DNA from: Candidatus Saccharimonadales bacterium
GTDB taxonomy: Bacteria; Acidobacteriota; Terriglobia; Terriglobales; Acidobacteriaceae
Reading direction: 5' to 3'
NCBI GenBank assembly: GCA_035568495.1
Contig: DATMNZ010000057.1
Coordinates: 11,315-75,314 of the forward strand
Length of the DNA stretch: 64,000 bases
Below, in pieces: positions 9,441 to 27,164 of the stretch. The notes beneath the pieces were generated by a model that searched no databases, was not told the DNA's origin, and worked only from the letters and a program-made list of their open reading frames with translations. Each line of letters begins with the position of its first letter. The stretch's first letter is position 1. Position numbers and translations under genes: made by a program.

Positions 9441-10184
9441 CTATATCGCCGTATAGCCGCCATCCACGGGGAAGGCTGCGCCGGTAATCCACGCTGCTTC
9501 GTCGCTGGCGAGAAACACCGCTGCGCCGGCCACGTCCTCGGGCTGCCCGAAACGTCCAATGGGATGCATAGCGATGCGCTGGCGGCGCGCGGCTTCATCC
9601 ATGCCGAAGCGGGCCACCATCTCGGTTTCGACGATGGCGGGGCAGATGCAGTTCACTCGGATTTTCTCAGGCGCATGGTCGAGGGCCATGGCCTTGGTGA
9701 GGGCCAGCACCGCGCCCTTGGAAGTTGCGTAGGCCACGCGATTGCGGGCGGCGACCAGACTCAGCACCGACCCCAGGTTGATGATCGATCCGCCGCCGGC
9801 AGTACGCATGTGGGGCAGCACCGCCCGTGAAAGCTGCCATACGCCGCGCACGTTGATGTTGAAGGTCTGCTCCCACTCGTCATCCGTATGGGATTCAGCA
9901 GTGCCGGCCAGAAGCACCCCGGCGTTGTTGACCAGAATGTGGATGCCGCCGAAGTGCTTTACCGCCGCTTCCGCCAGCTTGCGGTTGTCTGCTGCGTCGC
10001 CGGTGTCGCCCCTTACAGCTAGACAATTGGCGAGGCCAATCTCCTGGACGACGCGATCGAGTTTGTCTTGGGTGCGTCCGGCGATGACCACCTTGGCGCC
10101 TTCGCGGGCCAGGGCAATGGCGATGGCGCGGCCGATACCGCTGCCGCCTCCGGTGACGATGGCTGTTTTATTGGTTAGGCGCAT
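9441..10184 (-). CDS. SDR family oxidoreductase
   Basis: TGGGSGIGRAIA cofactor loop, NNAG, and the catalytic YATSKGAV (YxxxK). Length 247 aa. Confidence 0.9.
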   Translation of the reverse strand: MRLTNKTAIVTGGGSGIGRAIAIALAREGAKVVIAGRTQDKLDRVVQEIGLANCLAVRGDTGDAADNRKLAEAAVKHFGGIHILVNNAGVLLAGTAESHTDDEWEQTFNINVRGVWQLSRAVLPHMRTAGGGSIINLGSVLSLVAARNRVAYATSKGAVLALTKAMALDHAPEKIRVNCICPAIVETEMVARFGMDEAARRQRIAMHPIGRFGQPEDVAGAAVFLASDEAAWITGAAFPVDGGYTAI

Positions 10185-10341
10185 GAAGAAGATTGTAAAT
10201 GCCCCTCAGAGCCATTCAGCGCAATCTGCTGGAGGGCTGTGGAAGTCCATGGGCGGTCTGAAGAGACGATAAAAAAGTCGCCTAAAAAAGCTCTTGCACA
10301 ACAGCGCAGGTGTGCTATTCTTCTAGAAGAAACGGCGAAAG

Positions 10342-11055
10342 ATGGCGCCGCCTATGAGTGAACAAAAACAGCGTCTTTTAGATCTTTATGAAGAGTTTCC
10401 GTTTCACGATCATCCTCTTTGGAGAGCAATCAAAGCGCACGAACTGTCCTATGAACAGGTCATTAGGGCTGAAGTGCAACATGTCATAAGGACTCGTGCT
10501 GGGCAAAAACTTCGCGCCGATGCTCTCGCAATGGCAGAGAGCAATAGCCCAGCCATTTTTGAACAATTGCTGCAAACATATTTGGAGGAATGTACAGCCG
10601 ACGCCTCTGGTCCCAGTCACCTTGATTTGATCAGACGGCTGGTAATGCGAGGCGGCTGGACAGAAAAAGGTCTAGCCGAGGCAATTCCCACCCCAGGAAA
10701 CGCAGCTGCAATTGCGCTCTACAGGGACATTACAACCCGCGGAGCAGGTTGCCATATGTTGGGTGCCGGTGCAGTAGAGCACTACTATAGCCAGCTCTCA
10801 CCAAAGATATTTGAGGCTTACACCGTGAAATATGGCATGAGCGCAGAGCAGGCAGAGACCTATCGCATCCATGGGCACATGGATGAGTGTCACGCGGAGC
10901 GAGCATTCGCAATTCTGGATGAAGCGGTTTCGCTGCACACGTGGGAATCGGTACAAACCAGTGTGCGCGATGCATTTGTTGCAACCAGCCTGCACTACGA
11001 TGGCATGCTGCAAGCTGCCACCGGCACTTCCGATTTTTGGAACGGGAGAGATTAA
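10342..11055 (+). CDS. Heme-oxygenase-like (TenA/PqqC-fold) iron-containing redox enzyme family protein
   Basis: All-helical 237 aa with E/H-rich putative diiron ligands (AEVQHVI, YLEECTAD, GAVEHYY, HGHMDECHAERA). First gene of the AT-rich island I. Confidence 0.6.
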   Translation: MAPPMSEQKQRLLDLYEEFPFHDHPLWRAIKAHELSYEQVIRAEVQHVIRTRAGQKLRADALAMAESNSPAIFEQLLQTYLEECTADASGPSHLDLIRRLVMRGGWTEKGLAEAIPTPGNAAAIALYRDITTRGAGCHMLGAGAVEHYYSQLSPKIFEAYTVKYGMSAEQAETYRIHGHMDECHAERAFAILDEAVSLHTWESVQTSVRDAFVATSLHYDGMLQAATGTSDFWNGRD

Positions 11056-11616
11056 ATGAAGGGATATATCTACACTATGTACGCTGGAGCCGATCCTTCC
11101 CACGGATGGACGATGAATGACCCTATTTTCGGCAAGGTGCCAACCCTCGGCGCATGCGTGCCCAATATACGCAGGGTTGTCGAAGAAGGGGACTATATTT
11201 TCGTGATCAGCGGGCGAATTCCGGGTCAAAGGCAGTTTGTAGTTGGTGGAATGCAGGTTAAGGAGAAAATCGACGCCCTAGCTGCGTACAGACGATTTCC
11301 TGAGCACCGTCTAAAGCGAGAAGCCGATGGTACCGTTAAAGGGAACATTATTGTAAATCACAATGGCACCCACAATGCCCTCGACGAGCACTCAAATTTC
11401 GAGAAAAGAATTGAGAACTATATTGTTGGCTGCAATCCAACCGTATTCGAGAAGCCTGAAGAATTCAATTTAGCTCGAACTCAGACTGTTGGTAAACTTG
11501 AAGAGATTTTCAGGCGTCCCGGCGACCGTGTCTTTGACATCATCGGACGATACAGAAGGATGAACGATGAGCAGGTAAAGGAACTACTCTCCTGGATGAG
11601 ATCAATAAAACAATGA
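11056..11616 (+). CDS. Hypothetical protein, tentatively Nmad2-like (nucleotide-modification-associated domain 2)
   Basis: The start abuts the upstream stop (TAAATG). The N-terminus MKGYIYTMY...DPIFGKVPTLGACVPNIRRVVEEGDYIFVISG resembles the remembered Nmad2 pattern (Y-x-Y...NPF...TLAxCKPxIRR...GDWI). The assignment is tentative. Confidence 0.4.
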   Translation: MKGYIYTMYAGADPSHGWTMNDPIFGKVPTLGACVPNIRRVVEEGDYIFVISGRIPGQRQFVVGGMQVKEKIDALAAYRRFPEHRLKREADGTVKGNIIVNHNGTHNALDEHSNFEKRIENYIVGCNPTVFEKPEEFNLARTQTVGKLEEIFRRPGDRVFDIIGRYRRMNDEQVKELLSWMRSIKQ

Positions 11617-12737
11617 ATATATTGAATTCAATTGTCCGAGAAAAAAAACTCGATCTGGGGCAACTGGCTGCGGAGACCGAGATGCCCCCGGAGCGTATGC
11701 AAGAGCTTTTAGAAGGGGCAGATCCATCCATGGGCGAGTTGCGTAAGCTGGCTACGGCTCTAAAAGTAGGCATCGCTGATCTCTTGCCACAGGCGGAGAA
11801 TCATAAGGTGGACATATTGTTTCGAAACGCCTTGACTCACGGAAGAACCGATTCGGCCACCGCTTCAAGCCTATCGCGAAAGATGTCGTATTCTGCCGAC
11901 CTGATCGGCTCGTCGGGCGCAAACGCAACTTGGTGGCTACCCTTATTCAAACGGGGTGGTAACGATCTTGAAGAGGCAGAGGAGAATGCGCGTATTTTTC
12001 GCGCAACCTTCTGCCGGGATGACCAATTGGGGCCATTACCTTTTTTGCCAAAGCTGGTGGTCGAGCGAATGCACATACTACTTTTTGTGGTCAATTCTCC
12101 AAAAATGGACGGTGCTTCGGCATACTTTGAAGCGCAGCCTTTCATTTTTGTATCGCTTCGATTCAAGCCCCGGATGCTTTTTACCCTAGCTCATGAACTG
12201 GGCCACCTGATTGCACACCACGATCCCCGTGAAAGCGGAGTAGTGATCGATGAAAGAGAGCACACTGACTTACGAATAAGCAAGGGTAAGATCGAGCAGT
12301 ATGCTCACGCTTTTGCGTCATCATTACTCATGCCAAGGGCCTCCGTGGGGTTAGCACTGCAGAAGATTCGTGCACTCAGTGAAACCCAAGAGGACAAGGC
12401 GATTGGCGACTTGGAAATACTGTTCCTTTCTCGAATATTCTGCGTGAGCTTTGAAGCAGCTGCAATGAGATGTGAAATTCTTGGGTTAATTCCAGAAGGC
12501 GGAGCATTTTCTCTCAACCAGTTTTTGAAGCAGAAGTATGGAAGTGCAGAAAAGCGTGCTGAGGATGCAAACCTACCCCCTCGGCCCTCTATCGAATTCC
12601 CATCAATTCCGGAGCCATTGTTGGTATCCGCTATACAAAAAATCCGAGCTGGGGAGATATCAATTGGGAAAGCGTCTGCGCTCCTTGGCTTATCGATCTC
12701 GGACTTAATCAGCGCGAACGCACAACCTGTCAATTGA
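11613..12737 (+). CDS. XRE-type HTH / ImmA-IrrE (M78, COG2856) zinc metallopeptidase fusion protein
   Basis: ATGA overlap with the upstream gene. N-terminal HTH-like segment (LDLGQLAAETEMPPERMQELLEG...LRKLATALKVGIADLL). HExxH motif LAHELGHLIAHH and a downstream ...YAHAFASSLLMP typical of ImmA/IrrE. Confidence 0.8.
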   Translation: MNILNSIVREKKLDLGQLAAETEMPPERMQELLEGADPSMGELRKLATALKVGIADLLPQAENHKVDILFRNALTHGRTDSATASSLSRKMSYSADLIGSSGANATWWLPLFKRGGNDLEEAEENARIFRATFCRDDQLGPLPFLPKLVVERMHILLFVVNSPKMDGASAYFEAQPFIFVSLRFKPRMLFTLAHELGHLIAHHDPRESGVVIDEREHTDLRISKGKIEQYAHAFASSLLMPRASVGLALQKIRALSETQEDKAIGDLEILFLSRIFCVSFEAAAMRCEILGLIPEGGAFSLNQFLKQKYGSAEKRAEDANLPPRPSIEFPSIPEPLLVSAIQKIRAGEISIGKASALLGLSISDLISANAQPVN

Positions 12738-13228
12738 AAATTATTTTCGATGCAAGCAGTATTATCAATTTGCTTAATGGGGATGCAATGGATTCGGTCC
12801 TGTCTTTACCGGATTCGTCATTTTGCATAGGGCCTTTAGCGCTCGAAGAATGCAAGCAACAACGAGAACTCATCAACGCACTAATCCGCCAAGGCTCAAT
12901 CGAGTTGCTTGATGATACAAATATGCCTGCATCGGTCTTCTCCGCCCTTCAGCGACGTTACGATCTTGGCGTTGGCGAAACGGAATGTCTAGCATTTGCC
13001 ATTGACCAACAACTGACTGTCTCCTGCGATGATCATAAGGCGAGAGTAATGGTCAGTGGACGCTTAACCTCTTTGAGGGTCATTGGCAGTATTTCGCTGC
13101 TAAGCAGATGTGTTCAGCAGGGGCTTTTGAGCCCCGAGGAAGCAGAGACGAAGTATAGACGAATGAAATCCAGAGGTGGCTTTCTGCCCAATTTGCCGCC
13201 AGGCTATTTCAAGCAGGCCATCAACTAA
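12734..13228 (+). CDS. PIN-domain nuclease-like protein (putative toxin)
   Basis: The TTG start overlaps the upstream stop (TTGA). Acidic PIN-like positions are IIFDASSIINL, GVGETECLAF and SCDDHKAR. Length 164 aa. Confidence 0.65.
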   Translation: MKIIFDASSIINLLNGDAMDSVLSLPDSSFCIGPLALEECKQQRELINALIRQGSIELLDDTNMPASVFSALQRRYDLGVGETECLAFAIDQQLTVSCDDHKARVMVSGRLTSLRVIGSISLLSRCVQQGLLSPEEAETKYRRMKSRGGFLPNLPPGYFKQAIN

Positions 13229-22851: not shown

Positions 22852-24336
22852 TTAGAAATTGAGGATGCGTGGCTCTGGCCAGTGTTCAGGTGCCGCTACA
22901 AGCGTGTATGCGGCCGCTTGGGCAGAATGACCGATTAGGGTCTCACAGTAGCAGCCCGGCTTAGATCTGGCGTCGAAGCCGACGAACCCAAAGTTCTGAG
23001 ACAAGATGTCGAATTGTATGAAGTTTCGTGGCGGAGAGAATGTCCCGGTCAACCACCCAATACCGTAGCTCGCCACCATGGCACCTGCTAATGAGGTGAA
23101 GTGACCTACCGTCGGGAGGCCAGGTACATCGCGCCAGTAGGGTGCAGCCACCTCGCCTCGCTCAACTGCCGCCCAGGCTTCTTCACGCCGACGTTTTTTC
23201 TCTTCTTCGGGCATGAGCTCAACCGCCGCGGCCCATGGATCGACGAGATCTAAACAGTATGCACAAGGCAGACCTGGTGCGTACACCGTGATTTGACCAA
23301 CTTCATGGTTGACTGCCCCTTCTTGCCCTTCGAGAAGCACTCCAACATCGAGCGAGGGGACAAGGTATCTGAAGGCGAGCTCTGCGGCTGCCACGCGACT
23401 GTAGTTCGTGTCGGTGCAGCAGAGCAGGAGATCGGCAGTGACAATATGGTCGCGCACGAGTGGTTGGACGATGTTCCCGACAATCGCAATCACTTCCGCA
23501 GCCGGATTGATTCTGAGAATCAGTTCTCGAAGGGTTTCTACTTTGAACGGGTATGGCTCTTCCACAAAATGTTTGGCATAACTGCCATGCACCCGTTCCA
23601 AATTTGATTTCTCGAGCCTTTCCGGGTCAACGAGTATGAACCGGCCCACGCCAGCACGAGCTAACACATTGGCCGCGGGGGCGCCAGTGCCGCTGCAGCC
23701 TGCTATGACAACCGTCGAGTTAAGAAGGCGGGTGGCCGCCGGCTCCCCGTACAAACGACGCAGCCGTTCGCGATATTCAGGGTCATTAATGCGTTTGGGA
23801 ACCTTTGAATCTCTCTTAATCTGGCTAGGTGAGACAGTGATAAGTTCCTGCACTGCGTAAATGCGGCCTTCAATCCAGCCACGGCCAGATAAGCTAAAAT
23901 TCCCATTCCTGTCCATACTGACGATCAGGCTGAAATAGATCCTTGCCTTGGAGAACCCGCTGAAATAATCGCGGTAGTAATCATCCATGTCATCGTCTAA
24001 TGAACTCGGCAGCACTGGAACGCCCTGTGGGTGAGAATGAATCACGCCAATAAAAATGTCAGAAGTTCTCAGGAACATGGCCGCTCGGACTCTGTATTGT
24101 TCGTGGAACTCCACTATTGGAATGTCCGGGTTCAGGTCGCCAGGCCGCGGTGCCAGCACATCTGCAATGGTGATCACGCATTCTTGCGCTGATTCGTGCA
24201 CGCCGAAAACGATGAACGTGGCCCACTCCTTCGTGGGATACCGAGAGAACAGCAGCGACTCCATCTGCGTGCGCACTGTCCCGGTCATCCTTACGATTGC
24301 GGGTCGAGCATTATCCTTTACTGTTTTGTAAGCCAT
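22852..24336 (-). CDS. JAB/JAMM metalloisopeptidase - E1-like (ThiF/MoeB-type adenylyltransferase) fusion protein
   Basis: The N-terminal about 165 aa carry an upstream Glu (TKEWATFIVFGVHES) and the JAMM motif HSHPQGVPVLPSSLDDD (H-x-H-x7-S-x2-D). The C-terminal E1 domain has the nucleotide loop VVIAGCSGTGAPAANVLARAGVG, LVDPERLEKSNLERV, CCTDTNYSR, PCAYC and a distal CYC. Confidence 0.85.
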   Translation of the reverse strand: MAYKTVKDNARPAIVRMTGTVRTQMESLLFSRYPTKEWATFIVFGVHESAQECVITIADVLAPRPGDLNPDIPIVEFHEQYRVRAAMFLRTSDIFIGVIHSHPQGVPVLPSSLDDDMDDYYRDYFSGFSKARIYFSLIVSMDRNGNFSLSGRGWIEGRIYAVQELITVSPSQIKRDSKVPKRINDPEYRERLRRLYGEPAATRLLNSTVVIAGCSGTGAPAANVLARAGVGRFILVDPERLEKSNLERVHGSYAKHFVEEPYPFKVETLRELILRINPAAEVIAIVGNIVQPLVRDHIVTADLLLCCTDTNYSRVAAAELAFRYLVPSLDVGVLLEGQEGAVNHEVGQITVYAPGLPCAYCLDLVDPWAAAVELMPEEEKKRRREEAWAAVERGEVAAPYWRDVPGLPTVGHFTSLAGAMVASYGIGWLTGTFSPPRNFIQFDILSQNFGFVGFDARSKPGCYCETLIGHSAQAAAYTLVAAPEHWPEPRILNF

Positions 24337-24701
24337 GCCAGTACCTCATCGACATAGGTGTGGAAGCCGTGGATGCGAGGATCCCAAGTTGGGCCGCCAC
24401 CGCCGTTATGAGGGTGGTAACTGACTCTTGTCCATGCGCGATCTCCGAACTGTACGTTTTCTTGGACAGCTCCTGGGACCCTGCCTTTAAGGGGGGAGTC
24501 CGACGGTAAGAATGCATAATCAAGCATGGCCTGCGGGTAACCAGAGGGTACCGGCACCAGGACATCTGTTCTCTCGACCAGTCCCAATGTGGAAGGCAGA
24601 CCGGTGTAAATGACCGCGTCGGGGCTTTCAAGCAGCTGAGCACTCCACGATAGCAGTGAAAGCTCACTGAGAATTCGTGCTTTCGCTTCGGAATTCACCA
24701 C
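24318..24701 (-). CDS. Prokaryotic E2/UBC-like protein (resembles Prok-E2 family E), containing no cysteine
   Basis: The GTG start overlaps the Ubl stop (GTGGTGA), and the 3' end overlaps the JAB-E1 start by 19 nt. VLVPVPSGYPQAMLDYAFL and WTRVSYHP...W resemble the remembered Prok-E2_E pattern. The 127-aa sequence has zero Cys residues. Confidence 0.6.
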   Translation of the reverse strand: MVNSEAKARILSELSLLSWSAQLLESPDAVIYTGLPSTLGLVERTDVLVPVPSGYPQAMLDYAFLPSDSPLKGRVPGAVQENVQFGDRAWTRVSYHPHNGGGGPTWDPRIHGFHTYVDEVLAWLTKQ

Positions 24702-24934
24702 CAGCCACCCTTCACGCCGTTACGGGTCACCAAAAAGTGGTCACCATTCTTAATCTCGACTACGCCGGTCAGCGGGTCGCCAGCCTGGCCAGATTCGCCC
24801 AGTTCCCGGCGAACCGTTGCCGTCTCACCGGTCAGACTCGCAAGTCGGGCGATTGCGTCAACTGTCATGCGGCTCGTAACACCGTCTGCCTCTGTCTTTT
24901 TCTTTCCGTTTACAAAAATGATTAAATGATCCAT
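24695..24934 (-). CDS. Small ubiquitin-like (beta-grasp, Multiubiquitin-domain-like) protein ending in GG-WW
   Basis: 79 aa: MDHLIIFVNGKKK...VVEIKNGDHFLVTRNGVKGGWW*. A strong SD AAGGAGG lies 9 nt upstream of the ATG at 24934. It is the first gene of the overlapping three-gene operon. Confidence 0.7.
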   Translation of the reverse strand: MDHLIIFVNGKKKTEADGVTSRMTVDAIARLASLTGETATVRRELGESGQAGDPLTGVVEIKNGDHFLVTRNGVKGGWW

Positions 24935-24975
24935 GGCTTCTGGCCTCCTTTGTTCTTGGTTCTTTCCCGGAACTC

Positions 24976-24990
24976 CCACATTTGATGTGG
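24976..24990. promoter_or_regulatory. Candidate operator palindrome in the divergent intergenic region
   Basis: CCACAT-ttg-ATGTGG, about 40 nt upstream of the Ubl start, within the 317-bp region shared with the divergent sigma-like operon. Confidence 0.25.
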
Positions 24991-25251
24991 AGAGCAAGCG
25001 AAATTTGTTTGTATGTCTGTTATGCGGGTGCGAGCGGACTTTTTGGCCATTTGTGACCCCAAACCGCCGCTCTGCCGTGTTCCCAGTCGGAGCGCCCGCT
25101 GCAGTGTTTGACGGCAAAAGTTTTTGAAGGAAACGGCTAAAAATAGGACCCTGGCCCGCATAAGAAATGGGACTGCGCAAGTAAGGCTTTTGAGAAACAC
25201 CGGCCAATTCCAGGCGGGTTAGCCGCATCCCGAGAGGTACGGGTAAAAGAC

Positions 25252-25869
25252 GTGCAACAAGACACTTTTAGCAGCTTGAATCGCCGGCTGACGGCATTCG
25301 CGTTGCGGCTCTTCACGGAACATGGCATGCCCGGCGCGGGCGCTGTGATACCTGGTACCGGAATGTCAGCCGAAGATCTCGTCGGGAAGATTCTTGTTGA
25401 GTATTGCGAAGGCAAGATCACGCATCACCCGTCAAGAGGTTCCCTCATAACGCTGCTCTGCACAGGAATTCGCAATGACTTGTACGATGCTCTTTCAAAG
25501 GCATCTCACGACAAAGAGACGGTGCCTGATGAACGCGATGAGAAAGCTGATGATGACCATTCGGGCGACAAGAGCCTGGCTGCACACCCTGACCCAAATG
25601 TTGCGGATCCAGTCGTTGGGCTTGACGAACAGAGGTACCAGGAACACGTGCTCAGCTATTTTGAGGACGAATCTGAGCTGAGAGAGGTCTGCGAAGCGGT
25701 TTTTGATGTTGACCTTCACAAGCCCTCCGAAATCGCTAATTGTCTTGACATTTCGGTTGATGAATTTCACAACCGCAAAAAAAGATTAAGACTCCGTTTA
25801 TGTAAATACGGCATAGTCAGGTTGGATAAGAATGCAAAAGAAGCTCAACCCACGCGAAGTAAGAAATAA
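25252..25869 (+). CDS. ECF-like sigma-70 family protein (putative)
   Basis: Region-2-like segment (SAEDLVGKILVEYCEG...LITLLCTGIRNDLYDALSK), an acidic linker, and a region-4-like HTH (KPSEIANCLDISVDEFHNRKKRLRLRL). GTG start. Confidence 0.5.
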   Translation: MQQDTFSSLNRRLTAFALRLFTEHGMPGAGAVIPGTGMSAEDLVGKILVEYCEGKITHHPSRGSLITLLCTGIRNDLYDALSKASHDKETVPDERDEKADDDHSGDKSLAAHPDPNVADPVVGLDEQRYQEHVLSYFEDESELREVCEAVFDVDLHKPSEIANCLDISVDEFHNRKKRLRLRLCKYGIVRLDKNAKEAQPTRSKK

Positions 25870-26317
25870 GCTAATTAGGCTTTCAGAAGCTCTGTTTGGT
25901 GAGCCGGCAGAAGTAGACGAAGGTGAAGCGGAAGAGCTACTTGCTGCCGCGGGTATTGATGCATCCGAGCTGGACGCCAGGATGTATTCACGACTAAACA
26001 CAACAGCCCAACGCTATTGGACGAAACAACAGTCAGTTCCTCCTCTTCTCAAGCAGGCACTGGAAGAGCTGCGCCCTGCGAGCGCCCCGGCACGCAATGA
26101 AAAAGAACTTGCGATACAAGCAAAGTCTCTTATTGAAAGGCTTGTGGAGACGGCGAAGCTGGTCCCTGCGCTAGCTAAATATCAAACTCCGAGATTCGCA
26201 ACTCTGTACAGAAACAAAGGGCAGATCACTGAATCAGACAAAGACTTAATCGACAAGGCGAAATCTGAGATCGAAGACAAGCTCCGGAAGATGGGGGAAG
26301 AGGGAAATGAGCCTTAA
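25832..26317 (+). CDS. Hypothetical helical protein (candidate anti-sigma or adaptor)
   Basis: 161-aa ORF overlapping the sigma-like gene by 38 nt and the ImmA gene by 11 nt. Predicted all-helical and acidic. No family recognised. Confidence 0.5.
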   Translation: MQKKLNPREVRNKLIRLSEALFGEPAEVDEGEAEELLAAAGIDASELDARMYSRLNTTAQRYWTKQQSVPPLLKQALEELRPASAPARNEKELAIQAKSLIERLVETAKLVPALAKYQTPRFATLYRNKGQITESDKDLIDKAKSEIEDKLRKMGEEGNEP

Positions 26318-27164
26318 TCGAGGACCGGTGTTTGCAAGAATGCTCATTGAAGAGTTGGGTGGCCTTCGAGACGTATTTTCGATTGCGACGGAGCTTCGCC
26401 TGGAAGTACGTTGGGTTGCCTCGTCCGGGTTCGAGGGTGCTCTCGTAAGACCCACAAACATTCCAGTGGGATTGATCCTTGTCCGAGACTCGATTAGGGA
26501 ACCAGGACGAAAAGCGTTCACAGTTGCCCATGAAATTGGTCACTTTGTGATTCCCGGCCACGATCAAGCTGACTTATGCACCGCTCGGGACATAGAAAAT
26601 TGGTCGGATGACGCTAAGGAACTGGAACGTGAAGCCGACGAATTTGCGGCCGAACTTCTAATGCCGAAATCCGTCGTTCAACCGATGATTTGCTCTGAAC
26701 GGCCGTCACTGACCCTGATCGAGCGTATTGCACAGGCCACCAATGCTTCGCTCTCTGCTGCTGGCAGGCGGTACTGCGATCTCACTTCAGAGAGATGCGC
26801 GTTTGTTTGGAGCACTAGAGGCGTTGTTTCTTGGTCAAAATGCTCGGCAGAATTCGCGCATCGGCTTTACAAGGGTACTGAAATTCTCCCAGGGACATTT
26901 GCATTTGATTGTTTTAAACAACAGGAAGTTCCGAGGAGGCCAGAACCAGTCGATGCGGATCTTTGGCTGGCCAGCGAACGTCTGATTCCAGGATCAAAGC
27001 TGTATGAGGATTCACGGTTTCTCAGGTGGTATGAGAGTGTAGTTTCACTCCTCTGGATCGATAAGCATATTGAAAAATACCATGAGGATGACGATGCGTT
27101 ACTGAAAGAACTGGATCCAAGTGATTTTGAGTTAAGCAAAAAGCGGTGGCCTGGTCGCAAGTAG
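26307..27164 (+). CDS. ImmA/IrrE family (M78) zinc metallopeptidase with C-terminal sensor-like domain
   Basis: HExxH motif FTVAHEIGHFVIPGH followed by EREADEFAAELLMP, plus about 150 aa of C-terminal extension. Confidence 0.8.
   Translation: MSLNRGPVFARMLIEELGGLRDVFSIATELRLEVRWVASSGFEGALVRPTNIPVGLILVRDSIREPGRKAFTVAHEIGHFVIPGHDQADLCTARDIENWSDDAKELEREADEFAAELLMPKSVVQPMICSERPSLTLIERIAQATNASLSAAGRRYCDLTSERCAFVWSTRGVVSWSKCSAEFAHRLYKGTEILPGTFAFDCFKQQEVPRRPEPVDADLWLASERLIPGSKLYEDSRFLRWYESVVSLLWIDKHIEKYHEDDDALLKELDPSDFELSKKRWPGRK

What the first reader, a model, noticed from the sequence alone, without database searches (positions are those of the whole stretch)
22852..24934. Three-gene Ubl / E2-like / JAB-E1 cassette: a bacterial ubiquitin-like conjugation system of an experimentally uncharacterised architecture
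Seen directly: three overlapping minus-strand genes. The first is a 79-aa protein with strong SD and a C-terminal GG-WW. The second is a 127-aa protein whose GTG start overlaps the first gene's stop. The third is a 494-aa protein that overlaps by 19 nt. It fuses a complete JAMM motif (E...HSHPx7SxxD) to a ThiF/E1 adenylation domain (GCSGTG loop, LVDPERLEKSNLERV, CCTDT, PCAYC). Established knowledge: Iyer, Burroughs and Aravind predicted Multiubiquitin + Prok-E2 family E + JAB-E1 neighbourhoods computationally. The related four-gene Bil systems and CBASS Cap2/Cap3 act in antiphage defence. Inference: this compact version combines deconjugation/processing and activation in one polypeptide, with a single-domain Ubl. 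It sits in an AT-rich accessory island and is a good candidate for a distinct defence or stress-signalling conjugation system.
Basis: partly seen in the sequence, partly recalled or inferred. Interest (0 to 1): 0.86.

Follow-up and report, generated by a model that had tools for sequence, protein, structure and literature searches.

The report
Bub-type ubiquitin-like operon without BubE
Three overlapping genes encode a small ubiquitin-like protein, a cysteine-free E2 and a protease-E1 fusion that match the recently characterised bacterial "Bub" protein-tagging pathway, here as a trimmed variant without the usual second protease and beside a sigma-factor/CapP-protease switch.

Summary
The cassette does not have an uncharacterised architecture. 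It is a relative of Type I Bub ("6E") operons, which Ye, Gong, Chambers and Corbett solved structurally and biochemically (2024 preprint; cited in 2026 as Ye et al. 2026).

The 494-aa protein's best solved relative is Citrobacter BubCD, a JAB-E1 fusion. The E2 contains no cysteine and keeps the Bub Asp/Ser/His signature (D61, S94, H96). The E1 keeps the single conserved crossover-loop tyrosine (Y400). The Ubl models as a beta-grasp closest to BubA.

Three differences are real:
- Ubl and E2 are separate genes, and the Ubl carries a GG-WW tail.
- DUF6527/BubE, described as present in all Bub operons, is absent from the window and from 79 of 80 related genome loci.
- The divergent regulator is an ECF-type sigma factor, a 161-aa unknown protein and CapP, rather than CapH+CapP.

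Biological role and targets are unknown; antiphage defence is unproven even for canonical Bub. Verdict: a new variant of a known kind, of moderate interest.

The parts
24695..24934 (-). Ubl precursor (BubA-like), 79 aa. A single beta-grasp domain with invariant G76-G77, followed by a 2-residue WW tail.
   Evidence: ORF and Shine-Dalgarno site. AF2 model has mean pLDDT 79.7. Top Foldseek PDB hits are Bub multi-ubiquitin proteins 9cd2, 8u38 and 9ea8_B at TMq 0.61-0.66. 12 of 21 orthologues hit Pfam Multi_ubiq, best 3e-9; the window's own sequence does not reach threshold. GG is invariant and the tail is variable or absent in orthologues.
24318..24701 (-). E2 (BubB-like), 127 aa (126 from the second GTG). 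It has no cysteine; catalytic candidates are S94, H96 and D61.
   Evidence: Pfam Prok-E2_E 2.6e-8, above the cut-off, covering nearly the full length. D61, S94, H96, P97 and W90 are invariant in 69 of 69 E2 domains, and 37 of 69 have no Cys. hhalign against pOZ181 BubAB pairs D61=D299, S94=S333 and H96=H335.
22852..24336 (-). JAB/JAMM peptidase fused to an E1 adenylation domain (BubCD-like), 494 aa. The JAB domain spans roughly aa 16-170 and the E1 roughly aa 190-494, with crossover-loop Y400.
   Evidence: Pfam ThiF 1e-28 and a weak Prok-JAB hit. Best PDB relative is Citrobacter BubCD 9ea4, at 1e-17 with the single sequence and 4e-32 with the profile, spanning both domains. Invariant residues are listed. 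Y400 aligns with BubCD Y370.
24935..25251 (.). Divergent intergenic and promoter region between the Ubl operon and the regulator operon. It holds the only two TTATGCGG copies in the window, as an inverted pair (25020-25027 on +, 25156-25163 on -).
   Evidence: Blocks containing these motifs are conserved in relative L081. No sigma-70-type promoter match was found in this region.
25252..25869 (+). ECF-type sigma factor, 205 aa: sigma2 and sigma4 helical domains joined by a disordered linker.
   Evidence: AF2 model pLDDT 72.2. All top Foldseek PDB hits are ECF sigma factors (SigH, SigL, RpoE, SigE, AlgU) at probability 0.98-1.0. NCBIfam sigma70-ECF gives only a weak hit at 7e-4. JGI names homologues 'sigma24 family', and one carries PF07638.
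25832..26317 (+). 161-aa protein of unknown family, in the position that CapH holds in CapH+CapP modules. Candidate anti-sigma factor and CapP substrate (inference).
   Evidence: No Pfam, NCBIfam or meaningful PADLOC hit. A protein in the same position recurs between a sigma-like gene and CapP in at least 11 related loci, sharing a C-terminal RNK...(S/T)(D/E)EDL motif.
26307..27164 (+). CapP-family ImmA/IrrE (M78) metallopeptidase, 285 aa, with an HEIGH motif.
   Evidence: PADLOC capP 3.6e-53 across the full-length profile. Pfam Peptidase_M78 6e-13.

Best explanation
The cassette is a Bub-type (Aravind '6E') ubiquitin-like protein-conjugation system in a reduced, split-gene form.

Proposed mechanism, with the basis for each step:
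1. The JAB/JAMM domain of the 494-aa protein trims the WW tail from the 79-aa Ubl precursor and exposes Gly77. This is inferred from BubCD cleaving BubAB after the conserved Gly, and from the variable tails after an invariant GG in orthologues.
2. The E1 domain adenylates Gly77 with ATP. All nucleotide-binding and catalytic residues are conserved.
3. Tyr400 in the crossover loop takes the Ubl as a Tyr oxyester (by homology to BubCD Y370).
4. The Ubl passes to Ser94 of the cysteine-free E2, assisted by His96 and Asp61 (by homology to BubB S333/H335/D299).
5. The E2 transfers the Ubl to lysines of unknown targets.

Because no DUF6527/BubE deconjugase is present, any reversal would fall to the JAB domain or be absent (inference).

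Expression is probably switched on by the divergent operon. CapP, a protease that ssDNA activates in characterised systems, would cleave the 161-aa partner. That would free or activate the ECF-type sigma factor, which would then transcribe the Ubl operon. This regulatory step is inference from gene order only. The physiological role, whether stress response or antiphage, is unknown.
For: Homology to BubCD:
- The top solved relative is Citrobacter BubCD, across both the JAB and E1 domains.
- A canonical Bub locus (pOZ181, L088) carries the same Pfam families: Multi_ubiq, Prok-E2_E, Prok-JAB and ThiF.
- Invariant in 26 homologues: JAMM residues E37/H100/H102/S111/D114; adenylation residues G213/G216/G218, R248 (equivalent to BubCD R227) and D309.

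Catalytic tyrosine:
- Y400 is the only invariant Tyr in the crossover region. It lies 8 residues before the P-T-V motif; Y370 lies 9 residues before P-A-V in BubCD.
- MAFFT places Y370 in the Y400 column.
- Y400 is kept in 69 of 69 loci that have the E2. It is replaced by Ile or Gly in all 11 complete E2-less loci.

E2 and Ubl:
- The E2 has zero Cys; D61/S94/H96 are invariant and pair with BubB D299/S333/H335.
- The Ubl models as a beta-grasp closest to BubA proteins. GG is invariant, and tails range from none (stop directly after GG) to 11 residues.

Context:
- The three genes co-occur in 68-69 of 80 loci.
- Regulator: CapP 3.6e-53 and an ECF sigma fold. The sigma + ~130-160-aa protein + CapP trio recurs beside these cassettes in several phyla.
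- 31% of catalogued Bub operons carry CapH+CapP. Lau et al. note 24 CBASS systems with capH+capP plus a sigma70-family factor.
Against: - Nothing has been tested biochemically for this clade.
- The C-terminal third of the E1, including the crossover loop, cannot be aligned to BubCD by HMM search. The Y400=Y370 equivalence therefore rests on local motif spacing and a MAFFT column.
- The Tyr/E2 covariation is essentially one phylogenetic event: a single alphaproteobacterial subclade.
- Two features described as defining Type I Bub are missing: the BubAB fusion and BubE.
- The window's own Ubl does not reach Pfam Multi_ubiq, and its own JAB hit is below the cut-off.
- hhalign probability for E2 against BubB is low (11.5%, E 0.0026), because the template is a single sequence.
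- The 161-aa protein has no recognisable anti-sigma or HTH domain, and no ECF-type promoter could be identified.
Confidence: 0.72

Rival explanations
1. A sulfur-carrier system. Here the Ubl would be a ThiS/MoaD-like carrier, its tail would be removed by the JAB domain, and it would be adenylated and thiocarboxylated by the E1 to make a sulfur-containing metabolite. This resembles QbsCDE and CysO/Mec+ systems (comparison from general knowledge). It would not be a protein modifier.
For: - A sister subclade of the same JAB-E1 family has only Ubl + JAB-E1. It sits among radical SAM, CoA-transferase, SufE, aminotransferase and MoaD+ThiF genes (L068-L080, and L089 on a Terrarubrum plasmid).
- The GG-plus-short-tail precursor and a JAMM maturase are also typical of such carriers.
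- Relatives L081 and L083 have a rhodanese gene about 1 kb downstream.
Against: - The window cassette includes an E2 with an invariant Asp/Ser/His site, which has no role in sulfur transfer.
- The crossover Tyr is kept exactly where an E2 is present and lost in the E2-less biosynthetic subclade.
- No rhodanese domain or biosynthetic genes flank the window cassette.
- The neighbour is a CapP-type regulator.
Confidence: 0.08
2. A conventional thioester ubiquitination cascade. A catalytic E1 cysteine (for example in PCAYC) would pass the Ubl onward.
For: The E1 has four invariant cysteines, C358/C361 and C462/C464, plus C307 at 90% or more. Bil and Cap2 relatives use cysteines.
Against: - The E2 has no cysteine at all, and 37 of 69 orthologous E2 domains have none.
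- The invariant E1 cysteines form two pairs, CxxC and CxC, arranged like the structural-zinc site of ThiF/MoeB-type E1s (a comparison from general knowledge).
- The same pairs occur in canonical BubCDs of Methylomagnum, Pseudanabaena and Bradyrhizobium. Citrobacter BubCD, which works through Tyr370, lacks them.
Confidence: 0.07
3. A decaying or incomplete Bub operon that has lost BubE and is no longer functional.
For: - BubE is described as universal in Bub operons but is absent here.
- One relative (L053) keeps what looks like an N-terminally truncated DUF6527 on the opposite strand.
Against: - 79 of 80 related loci, spread over at least six phyla, lack DUF6527. They still keep intact ORFs, overlapping (translationally coupled) genes and all catalytic residues.
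- That is purifying selection on a three-gene system, not decay.
- In the Citrobacter system BubE acts as a negative regulator; conjugation proceeds without it.
Confidence: 0.05

Closest known systems
Type I Bub operon (6E.1; BubAB + BubCD + BubE), e.g. Citrobacter sp. RHBSTW-00271 and the IncHI2 plasmid pOZ181 locus L088
   Same: - A JAB-E1 fusion homologous over both domains.
- A Prok-E2_E E2 without a catalytic Cys and with Asp/Ser/His.
- A crossover-loop Tyr.
- A Multi_ubiq-type beta-grasp Ubl ending in Gly.
- Frequent linkage to CapP-type regulators.
   Different: - Ubl and E2 are separate, overlapping genes rather than one pre-protein.
- The Ubl has one beta-grasp domain and a 2-residue tail.
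- There is no DUF6527/BubE.
- E1 identity is only about 26-33%, and the C-terminal ~120 aa is not alignable by HMM.
- The clade has its own conserved motifs: RYPxKEW, SNLERxHGS and a C-terminal HWP.
Methylocystis bryophila plasmid locus L090 (multiubiquitin 94 aa, E2/UBC 129 aa, ThiF 462 aa, DUF6527)
   Same: The same split-gene order, Ubl, then E2, then JAB-E1.
   Different: It still carries DUF6527 directly downstream. Its E1 is only about 33% identical to the window's over aa 99-396.
Type II Bub (BubA + BubBD E2-E1 fusion + BubE)
   Same: The same oxyester logic, with a crossover Tyr and an E2 Ser. The Ubl is related: 9cd2 is the top structural hit.
   Different: Its E2 is fused to the E1, it has no JAB domain, its E2 site is Ser with Lys/His, and BubE is present.
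Bil (BilABCD) and CBASS Cap2/Cap3
   Same: The same Ubl/E1/E2/JAB toolkit, and a defence-island context.
   Different: - Both use cysteine thioesters.
- The JAB is a separate protein.
- The Bil E1 has tandem IAD-AAD-CYS domains.
- Cap2 is an E2-E1 fusion that conjugates a cGAS-like enzyme rather than a Ubl.
- PADLOC E1-E2 models match only the adenylation core.
CapH+CapP DNA-damage switch (Lau et al. 2022)
   Same: A full-length CapP-family M78 peptidase encoded divergently from the controlled operon.
   Different: The partner gene is not an HTH repressor, and an ECF-type sigma factor gene is added. Lau et al. mention 24 CBASS systems with capH+capP plus a sigma70-family factor but did not study them.

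Membership tests
Type I Bub (6E.1) | JAB/JAMM peptidase fused N-terminally to a ThiF-type E1 (BubCD) and homologous to it | tested here: met
   Citrobacter BubCD is the best PDB hit, aligning query residues 22-336 at 1e-17 and 4e-32 with the profile.
Type I Bub (6E.1) | Intact JAMM site (BubCD E28, H91, H93, D104) | tested here: met
   E37, H100, H102 and D114 are invariant in 26 homologues and in all 88 aligned sequences.
Type I Bub (6E.1) | Crossover loop with an invariant Tyr (Y370) and no catalytic Cys | tested here: met
   Y400 is invariant, shares an alignment column with Y370, and has matching spacing to the P-x-V motif. HMM-level alignment of this region to BubCD failed, so the equivalence is positional.
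Type I Bub (6E.1) | E2 of the Prok-E2_E family with invariant Ser + His (S333, H335) and Asp (D299), and no Cys | tested here: met
   Pfam hit of 34.1 bits against a 25-bit cut-off. S94/H96/D61 are invariant in 69 of 69 domains and the window E2 has zero Cys. hhalign gives the residue pairing.
Type I Bub (6E.1) | Beta-grasp Ubl (Multi_ubiq) with a conserved C-terminal Gly | tested here: met
   AF2 plus Foldseek. 12 of 21 orthologues hit PF14452. GG is invariant. The window sequence alone is below the Pfam threshold.
Type I Bub (6E.1) | Ubl encoded as a fusion to the E2 (BubAB pre-protein) | tested here: not met
   They are separate ORFs in different frames with a GTGA overlap. 24 of 68 related genome loci with an E2 are also split and 44 are fused.
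Type I Bub (6E.1) | DUF6527 serine protease BubE in the operon | tested here: not met
   A 6-seed DUF6527 HMM run with --max on six-frame translations finds every reference BubE. It finds nothing in the 64-kb window, and only L053 among loci L001-L087.
Type I Bub (6E.1) | ATP-dependent Ubl conjugation through oxyester intermediates | not testable with these tools
   Requires biochemistry.
CapH+CapP regulator | CapP: an ImmA/IrrE M78 metallopeptidase with HExxH | tested here: met
   PADLOC capP 3.6e-53 over profile positions 22-242 of 242, and an HEIGH motif is present.
CapH+CapP regulator | CapH: a small HTH repressor encoded immediately upstream of capP | tested here: not met
   The 161-aa protein in that position has no HTH or other Pfam hit. 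Some relatives (L039, L051, L070, L073, L084) do have HTH proteins there.
CapH+CapP regulator | ssDNA-activated cleavage of the partner protein | not testable with these tools
   Requires biochemistry.
ECF (group 4) sigma factor | Sigma2 and sigma4 domains joined by a linker | tested here: met
   The AF2 model has two helical domains with a disordered region at residues 88-118. The Foldseek top 10 are all ECF sigma factors at probability 0.98-1.0. Sequence models are weak, with TIGR02937 at 7e-4 below its cut-off.
Bil (BilABCD) | Separate JAB protein, and an E1 with tandem inactive/active adenylation domains plus a Cys domain | tested here: not met
   The protein has a single adenylation domain fused to JAB and no Cys domain.
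JAB/E1 sulfur-carrier systems | Ubl + E1 (+JAB) without an E2, in a biosynthetic gene cluster | tested here: not met
   An E2 is present and there are no biosynthetic neighbours. The E2-less sister subclade does fit this description.

The most novel reading that the evidence does not exclude
The window may represent a distinct third type of Bub pathway, widespread in Acidobacteriota, Verrucomicrobiota, Planctomycetota and Gemmatimonadota. This type would have dispensed with BubE, so that the JAB domain alone both matures and, if at all, reverses the Ubl mark. Unlike any characterised Cap regulator, it would be switched on through a sigma factor released when CapP destroys a novel anti-sigma-like partner. 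That would be positive control by proteolysis rather than de-repression.
Probability: 0.3. Interest if true: 0.6.

Novelty: new variant of a known kind. Interest (0 to 1): 0.45.

Why it matters
Bub pathways are the only known ubiquitin-like cascades that run without catalytic cysteines, and their targets and biological role are still unknown.

- This clade shows that the DUF6527 protease, described as universal, is dispensable in a large and phylogenetically broad group. That narrows the minimal conjugation machinery to Ubl + E2 + JAB-E1.
- The observation that the crossover-loop tyrosine is kept wherever an E2 is present, and lost in the E2-less biosynthetic sister group, gives independent comparative support for the unusual Tyr-oxyester E1 mechanism.
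- The sigma factor/unknown protein/CapP trio is a testable candidate for a new way of wiring DNA-damage sensing to an accessory operon.

None of this overturns current understanding. It extends a family described in 2024-2026.

Tried and rejected
- Aligning the E1 C-terminal third (aa 318/337-494) to solved BubCD, by phmmer and by a 14-sequence profile, gave no hit. I fetched a canonical plasmid locus instead.
- An HMM search of the Ubl profile against PDB gave only chance hits. hhalign of the Ubl profile against BubAB was uninformative. The Ubl fold rests on the AF2 model and Foldseek.
- A strict CxCxC...S...C..H regex for DUF6527 was too narrow. It was replaced by phmmer and HMM searches.
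- A weak BubE hit at window 9733-10269 is the antisense shadow of a short-chain dehydrogenase gene and was rejected.
- The 150-aa ORF downstream of the E1 in L081 is not conserved in the window or in any other locus, so it is not part of the system.
- No conserved gene lies downstream of the E1 across loci.
- No ECF-type or sigma-70 promoter and no convincing terminator could be assigned.
- There are no tRNA genes in the window to mark an integration site.
- Single-linkage clustering of raw ORFs was contaminated by antisense shadow ORFs and had to be filtered.
- Supplementary tables of the Bub paper are not held, so I could not check whether any catalogued operon lacks BubE or is split.
I used database homologues instead.
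Full report
**Observation**

- The 79-aa ORF spans 24695-24934. It has an AAGGAGG ribosome-binding site and ends GG-WW.
- The 127-aa ORF spans 24318-24701. Its GTG start overlaps the Ubl stop.
- The 494-aa ORF spans 22852-24336 and overlaps the E2 gene by 19 nt.
- All quoted motifs are present.
- Pfam assigns Prok-E2_E to the 127-aa protein (2.6e-8, above the gathering score). It assigns ThiF (1e-28) and a sub-threshold Prok-JAB hit to the 494-aa protein. It assigns nothing to the 79-aa protein.

**What the cassette is**

The best solved relative of the 494-aa protein is Citrobacter BubCD (PDB 9ea4/9ea5). The match spans the JAB and E1 domains, at E 1e-17 with the single sequence and 4e-32 with a profile of 26 homologues.

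BubCD belongs to the "Bub" (bacterial ubiquitination-like) operons, formerly called "6E" or "DUF6527" operons. They were described by Ye, Gong, Chambers and Corbett (bioRxiv 10.1101/2024.11.21.623953).
- BubCD cleaves BubAB after a conserved Gly.
- The E1 uses a crossover-loop tyrosine (Y370). The E2 uses a serine (S333) with H335 and D299. The cascade therefore runs on oxyesters rather than thioesters.
- Iyer, Burroughs and Aravind had predicted this neighbourhood in 2006 and took the cysteine-less E2 to be inactive (PMC1779556).

**Catalytic features in the window proteins**

- JAB-E1: an alignment of 26 homologues (A1) shows the following invariant residues.
  - JAMM residues E37, H100, H102, S111 and D114.
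  - Nucleotide loop G213/G216/G218.
  - R248, equivalent to BubCD R227, and D309.
  - Two cysteine pairs, C358/C361 and C462/C464, arranged like the structural-zinc pairs of ThiF/MoeB-type E1s (a comparison from general knowledge).
  - One tyrosine, Y400 (followed by W401), in the crossover region.
- E2: the protein has no cysteine. Across 69 orthologous E2 domains D61, S94 and H96 are invariant, and 37 domains have no Cys. hhalign against the BubAB of a canonical locus pairs D61/S94/H96 with D299/S333/H335.
- Reference locus: I fetched a canonical Type I Bub locus from the C. freundii IncHI2 plasmid pOZ181 (L088). Its residue numbering matches the paper's.
- Tyr equivalence: Y370 lies in ERG-Y-ITGLQEEAPAV, and the window has ERGEVAAP-Y-WRDVPGLPTV. 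A MAFFT alignment of 88 sequences puts Y370 and Y400 in the same column.
- Ubl: the AF2 model (mean pLDDT 79.7) is a beta-grasp. Its best PDB neighbours are the Bub multi-ubiquitin proteins 9cd2 and 8u38 and BubA(155-229) 9ea8_B, at TMq 0.61-0.66. They are followed by TtuB, Raf-RBD and ubiquitins. 12 of 21 orthologues hit Pfam Multi_ubiq.

The Ubl is a beta-grasp, the E2 has an HMM hit, and the genes co-occur.

**Comparative genomics**

- The 494-aa protein has more than 245 database homologues. It also has 80 genome loci in Acidobacteriota, Verrucomicrobiota, Planctomycetota, Gemmatimonadota, Nitrospirota, Alphaproteobacteria and other groups.
- An E2 sits immediately upstream in 68 of the 80 genome loci, which is 69 counting the window.
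- In 44 of those loci the E2 is fused to 2-3 Ubl domains, as in BubAB. In 24 loci plus the window, a roughly 75-100-aa Ubl and a roughly 130-aa E2 are separate genes.
- All 21 aligned split Ubls (20 loci plus the window) contain ...V(E/D)GG. In 6 of the 21 this is the C-terminus; in the rest it is followed by 2-11 variable residues. That is the pattern of a precursor needing trimming, which gives the fused JAB domain a job even without a BubAB fusion.

**What is missing**

Ye et al. state that all Bub operons encode BubE.
- A DUF6527 HMM built from six seeds recovers every reference BubE and an unannotated one in a Microbacterium plasmid.
- It finds nothing in the 64-kb window.
- Among loci L001-L087 it finds only one hit, in L053. 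That copy is on the opposite strand and apparently truncated.
- The published Bub catalogue was compiled from DUF6527-containing operons, so this clade would have escaped it.
- Split Ubl/E2 genes are not unique to this clade. A Methylocystis plasmid has Ubl, E2, JAB-E1 and DUF6527 as separate genes.
- The window clade is also distinct in sequence. Plasmid-borne canonical BubCDs align only over aa ~83-375 at 25-33% identity.

**A useful natural control**

Eleven complete loci lack the E2 (Bosea, Nitrospirillum, Salinarimonas, Sphingopyxis), as does a Terrarubrum plasmid.
- In them Ubl + JAB-E1 sit among radical SAM, CoA-transferase, SufE, aminotransferase and MoaD/ThiF genes. This suggests a sulfur-carrier or biosynthetic role.
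- In all eleven, the Y400 position is Ile or Gly. All 69 E2-linked proteins keep Tyr.
- This is one phylogenetic event and so not statistically independent. It is nevertheless what the Tyr-to-E2 relay model predicts, and it argues against a sulfur-carrier reading for the window cassette.

**Regulation**

Three genes are transcribed divergently from the cassette.
- A 205-aa protein. Its AF2 model (pLDDT 72) has two helical domains and a disordered linker, and it matches only ECF sigma factors in the PDB at probability 0.98-1.0. JGI names its homologues "sigma24 family".
- A 161-aa protein with no detectable domain.
- A full-length CapP peptidase (PADLOC 3.6e-53).

This trio is conserved in the closest relatives. 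It recurs with divergent sequences next to Bub-like cassettes in Verrucomicrobiota and Planctomycetota. Other relatives carry a canonical HTH CapH+CapP instead. A 79%-identical relative has a different four-gene module, like one on a Methylomagnum plasmid. The regulators are therefore swapped as modules.

CapP is known to be activated by ssDNA and to cleave CapH. Lau et al. noted, without follow-up, 24 CBASS systems with capH, capP and a sigma70-family factor. My proposal is that CapP cleaves the 161-aa protein to release the sigma factor. This is inference from gene order only.

**Function**

Function is unknown. Ye et al. could not show phage protection for any Bub operon, so "defence system" is a hypothesis. 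The locus is a roughly 5-kb insert (22.4-27.5 kb) with slightly lower GC than its surroundings. It lies between housekeeping-type genes: thrS, DUF2461 and DUF1684 on one side, and coxMSL on the other.

**Verdict**

It is a new variant of a known kind, being DUF6527-less, split-gene and linked to a sigma factor and CapP. Interest is moderate.

Noticed in passing
window 10342-13228 (+): A second low-GC islet (GC 0.48-0.53). It encodes a Haem_oxygenas_2 protein, an Nmad2 (nucleotide-modification-associated) protein, a 374-aa HTH_26+Peptidase_M78 fusion, and a 164-aa ORF with no Pfam hit. It may be another small accessory or defence module.
   Followed up: partly
L068-L080 and L089 (Bosea, Nitrospirillum, Salinarimonas, Sphingopyxis, Terrarubrum plasmid NZ_CP091852.1 67974-69742): An E2-less branch of the same JAB-E1 family. 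A ~90-aa Ubl plus JAB-E1 is embedded in a cluster of radical SAM, CoA-transferase, SufE, acyl-CoA dehydrogenase, aminotransferase and MoaD+ThiF genes. The crossover Tyr is replaced by Ile or Gly. It looks like a sulfur-carrier or biosynthetic pathway.
   Followed up: partly
L054:4800-6317 (-) and homologues in L012, L016, L020, L027, L031, L033, L037, L041, L045-L047, L049, L053, L059, L063: A conserved ~505-aa protein with no Pfam or PDB relative. It contains QDQGVSAC...GHAV..., which resembles a papain-like Cys/His pattern. With a ~75-aa partner it is encoded divergently upstream of most of these loci, which are mainly split-type Bub-like cassettes. It is absent from the window. It could be an alternative deconjugase or an effector.
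   Followed up: partly
window 25020-25027 (+) and 25156-25163 (-): The only two copies of TTATGCGG in the 64-kb window form an inverted pair inside the 317-bp divergent promoter region. The surrounding blocks are conserved in relative L081. This is a candidate operator. The copy count alone is not above chance.
   Followed up: partly
L084/L085 4971-7201 and L092 1-2187: A relative whose JAB-E1 is 79% identical carries a different regulator set: a 63-69-aa protein, a 212-aa protein, an HTH-like 158-aa protein and a peptidase-position gene. This resembles a Methylomagnum plasmid Bub locus, which has a CopG-family protein, a 212-aa protein, an HTH protein and ImmA/IrrE. Regulator modules are therefore exchanged between near-identical cassettes.
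   Followed up: partly
L095 4261-4608 (+), Microbacterium sp. SGAir0570 plasmid: An unannotated DUF6527 ORF was detected by the seed HMM (1.2e-25), downstream of a short 'ThiF' gene in a split Ubl/E2 locus.
   Followed up: no
whole window (source contig ENA ERZ27253736 k141_2092179; NCBI locus tags VNW97_05935/05940): NCBI labels the source MAG 'Candidatus Saccharimonadales bacterium'. The contig has 58% GC and encodes coxLMS-type dehydrogenase subunits. The closest relatives of its cassette are Acidobacteriota MAGs. The label looks like a binning or taxonomy error.
   Followed up: no
L053 9586-9924 (-): The only DUF6527 in the window's clade lies on the opposite strand downstream of the E1. 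It matches only the C-terminal 40 positions of the Pfam model and lacks the CxCxC zinc motif. It may be a remnant showing that the clade's ancestor had BubE.
   Followed up: partly
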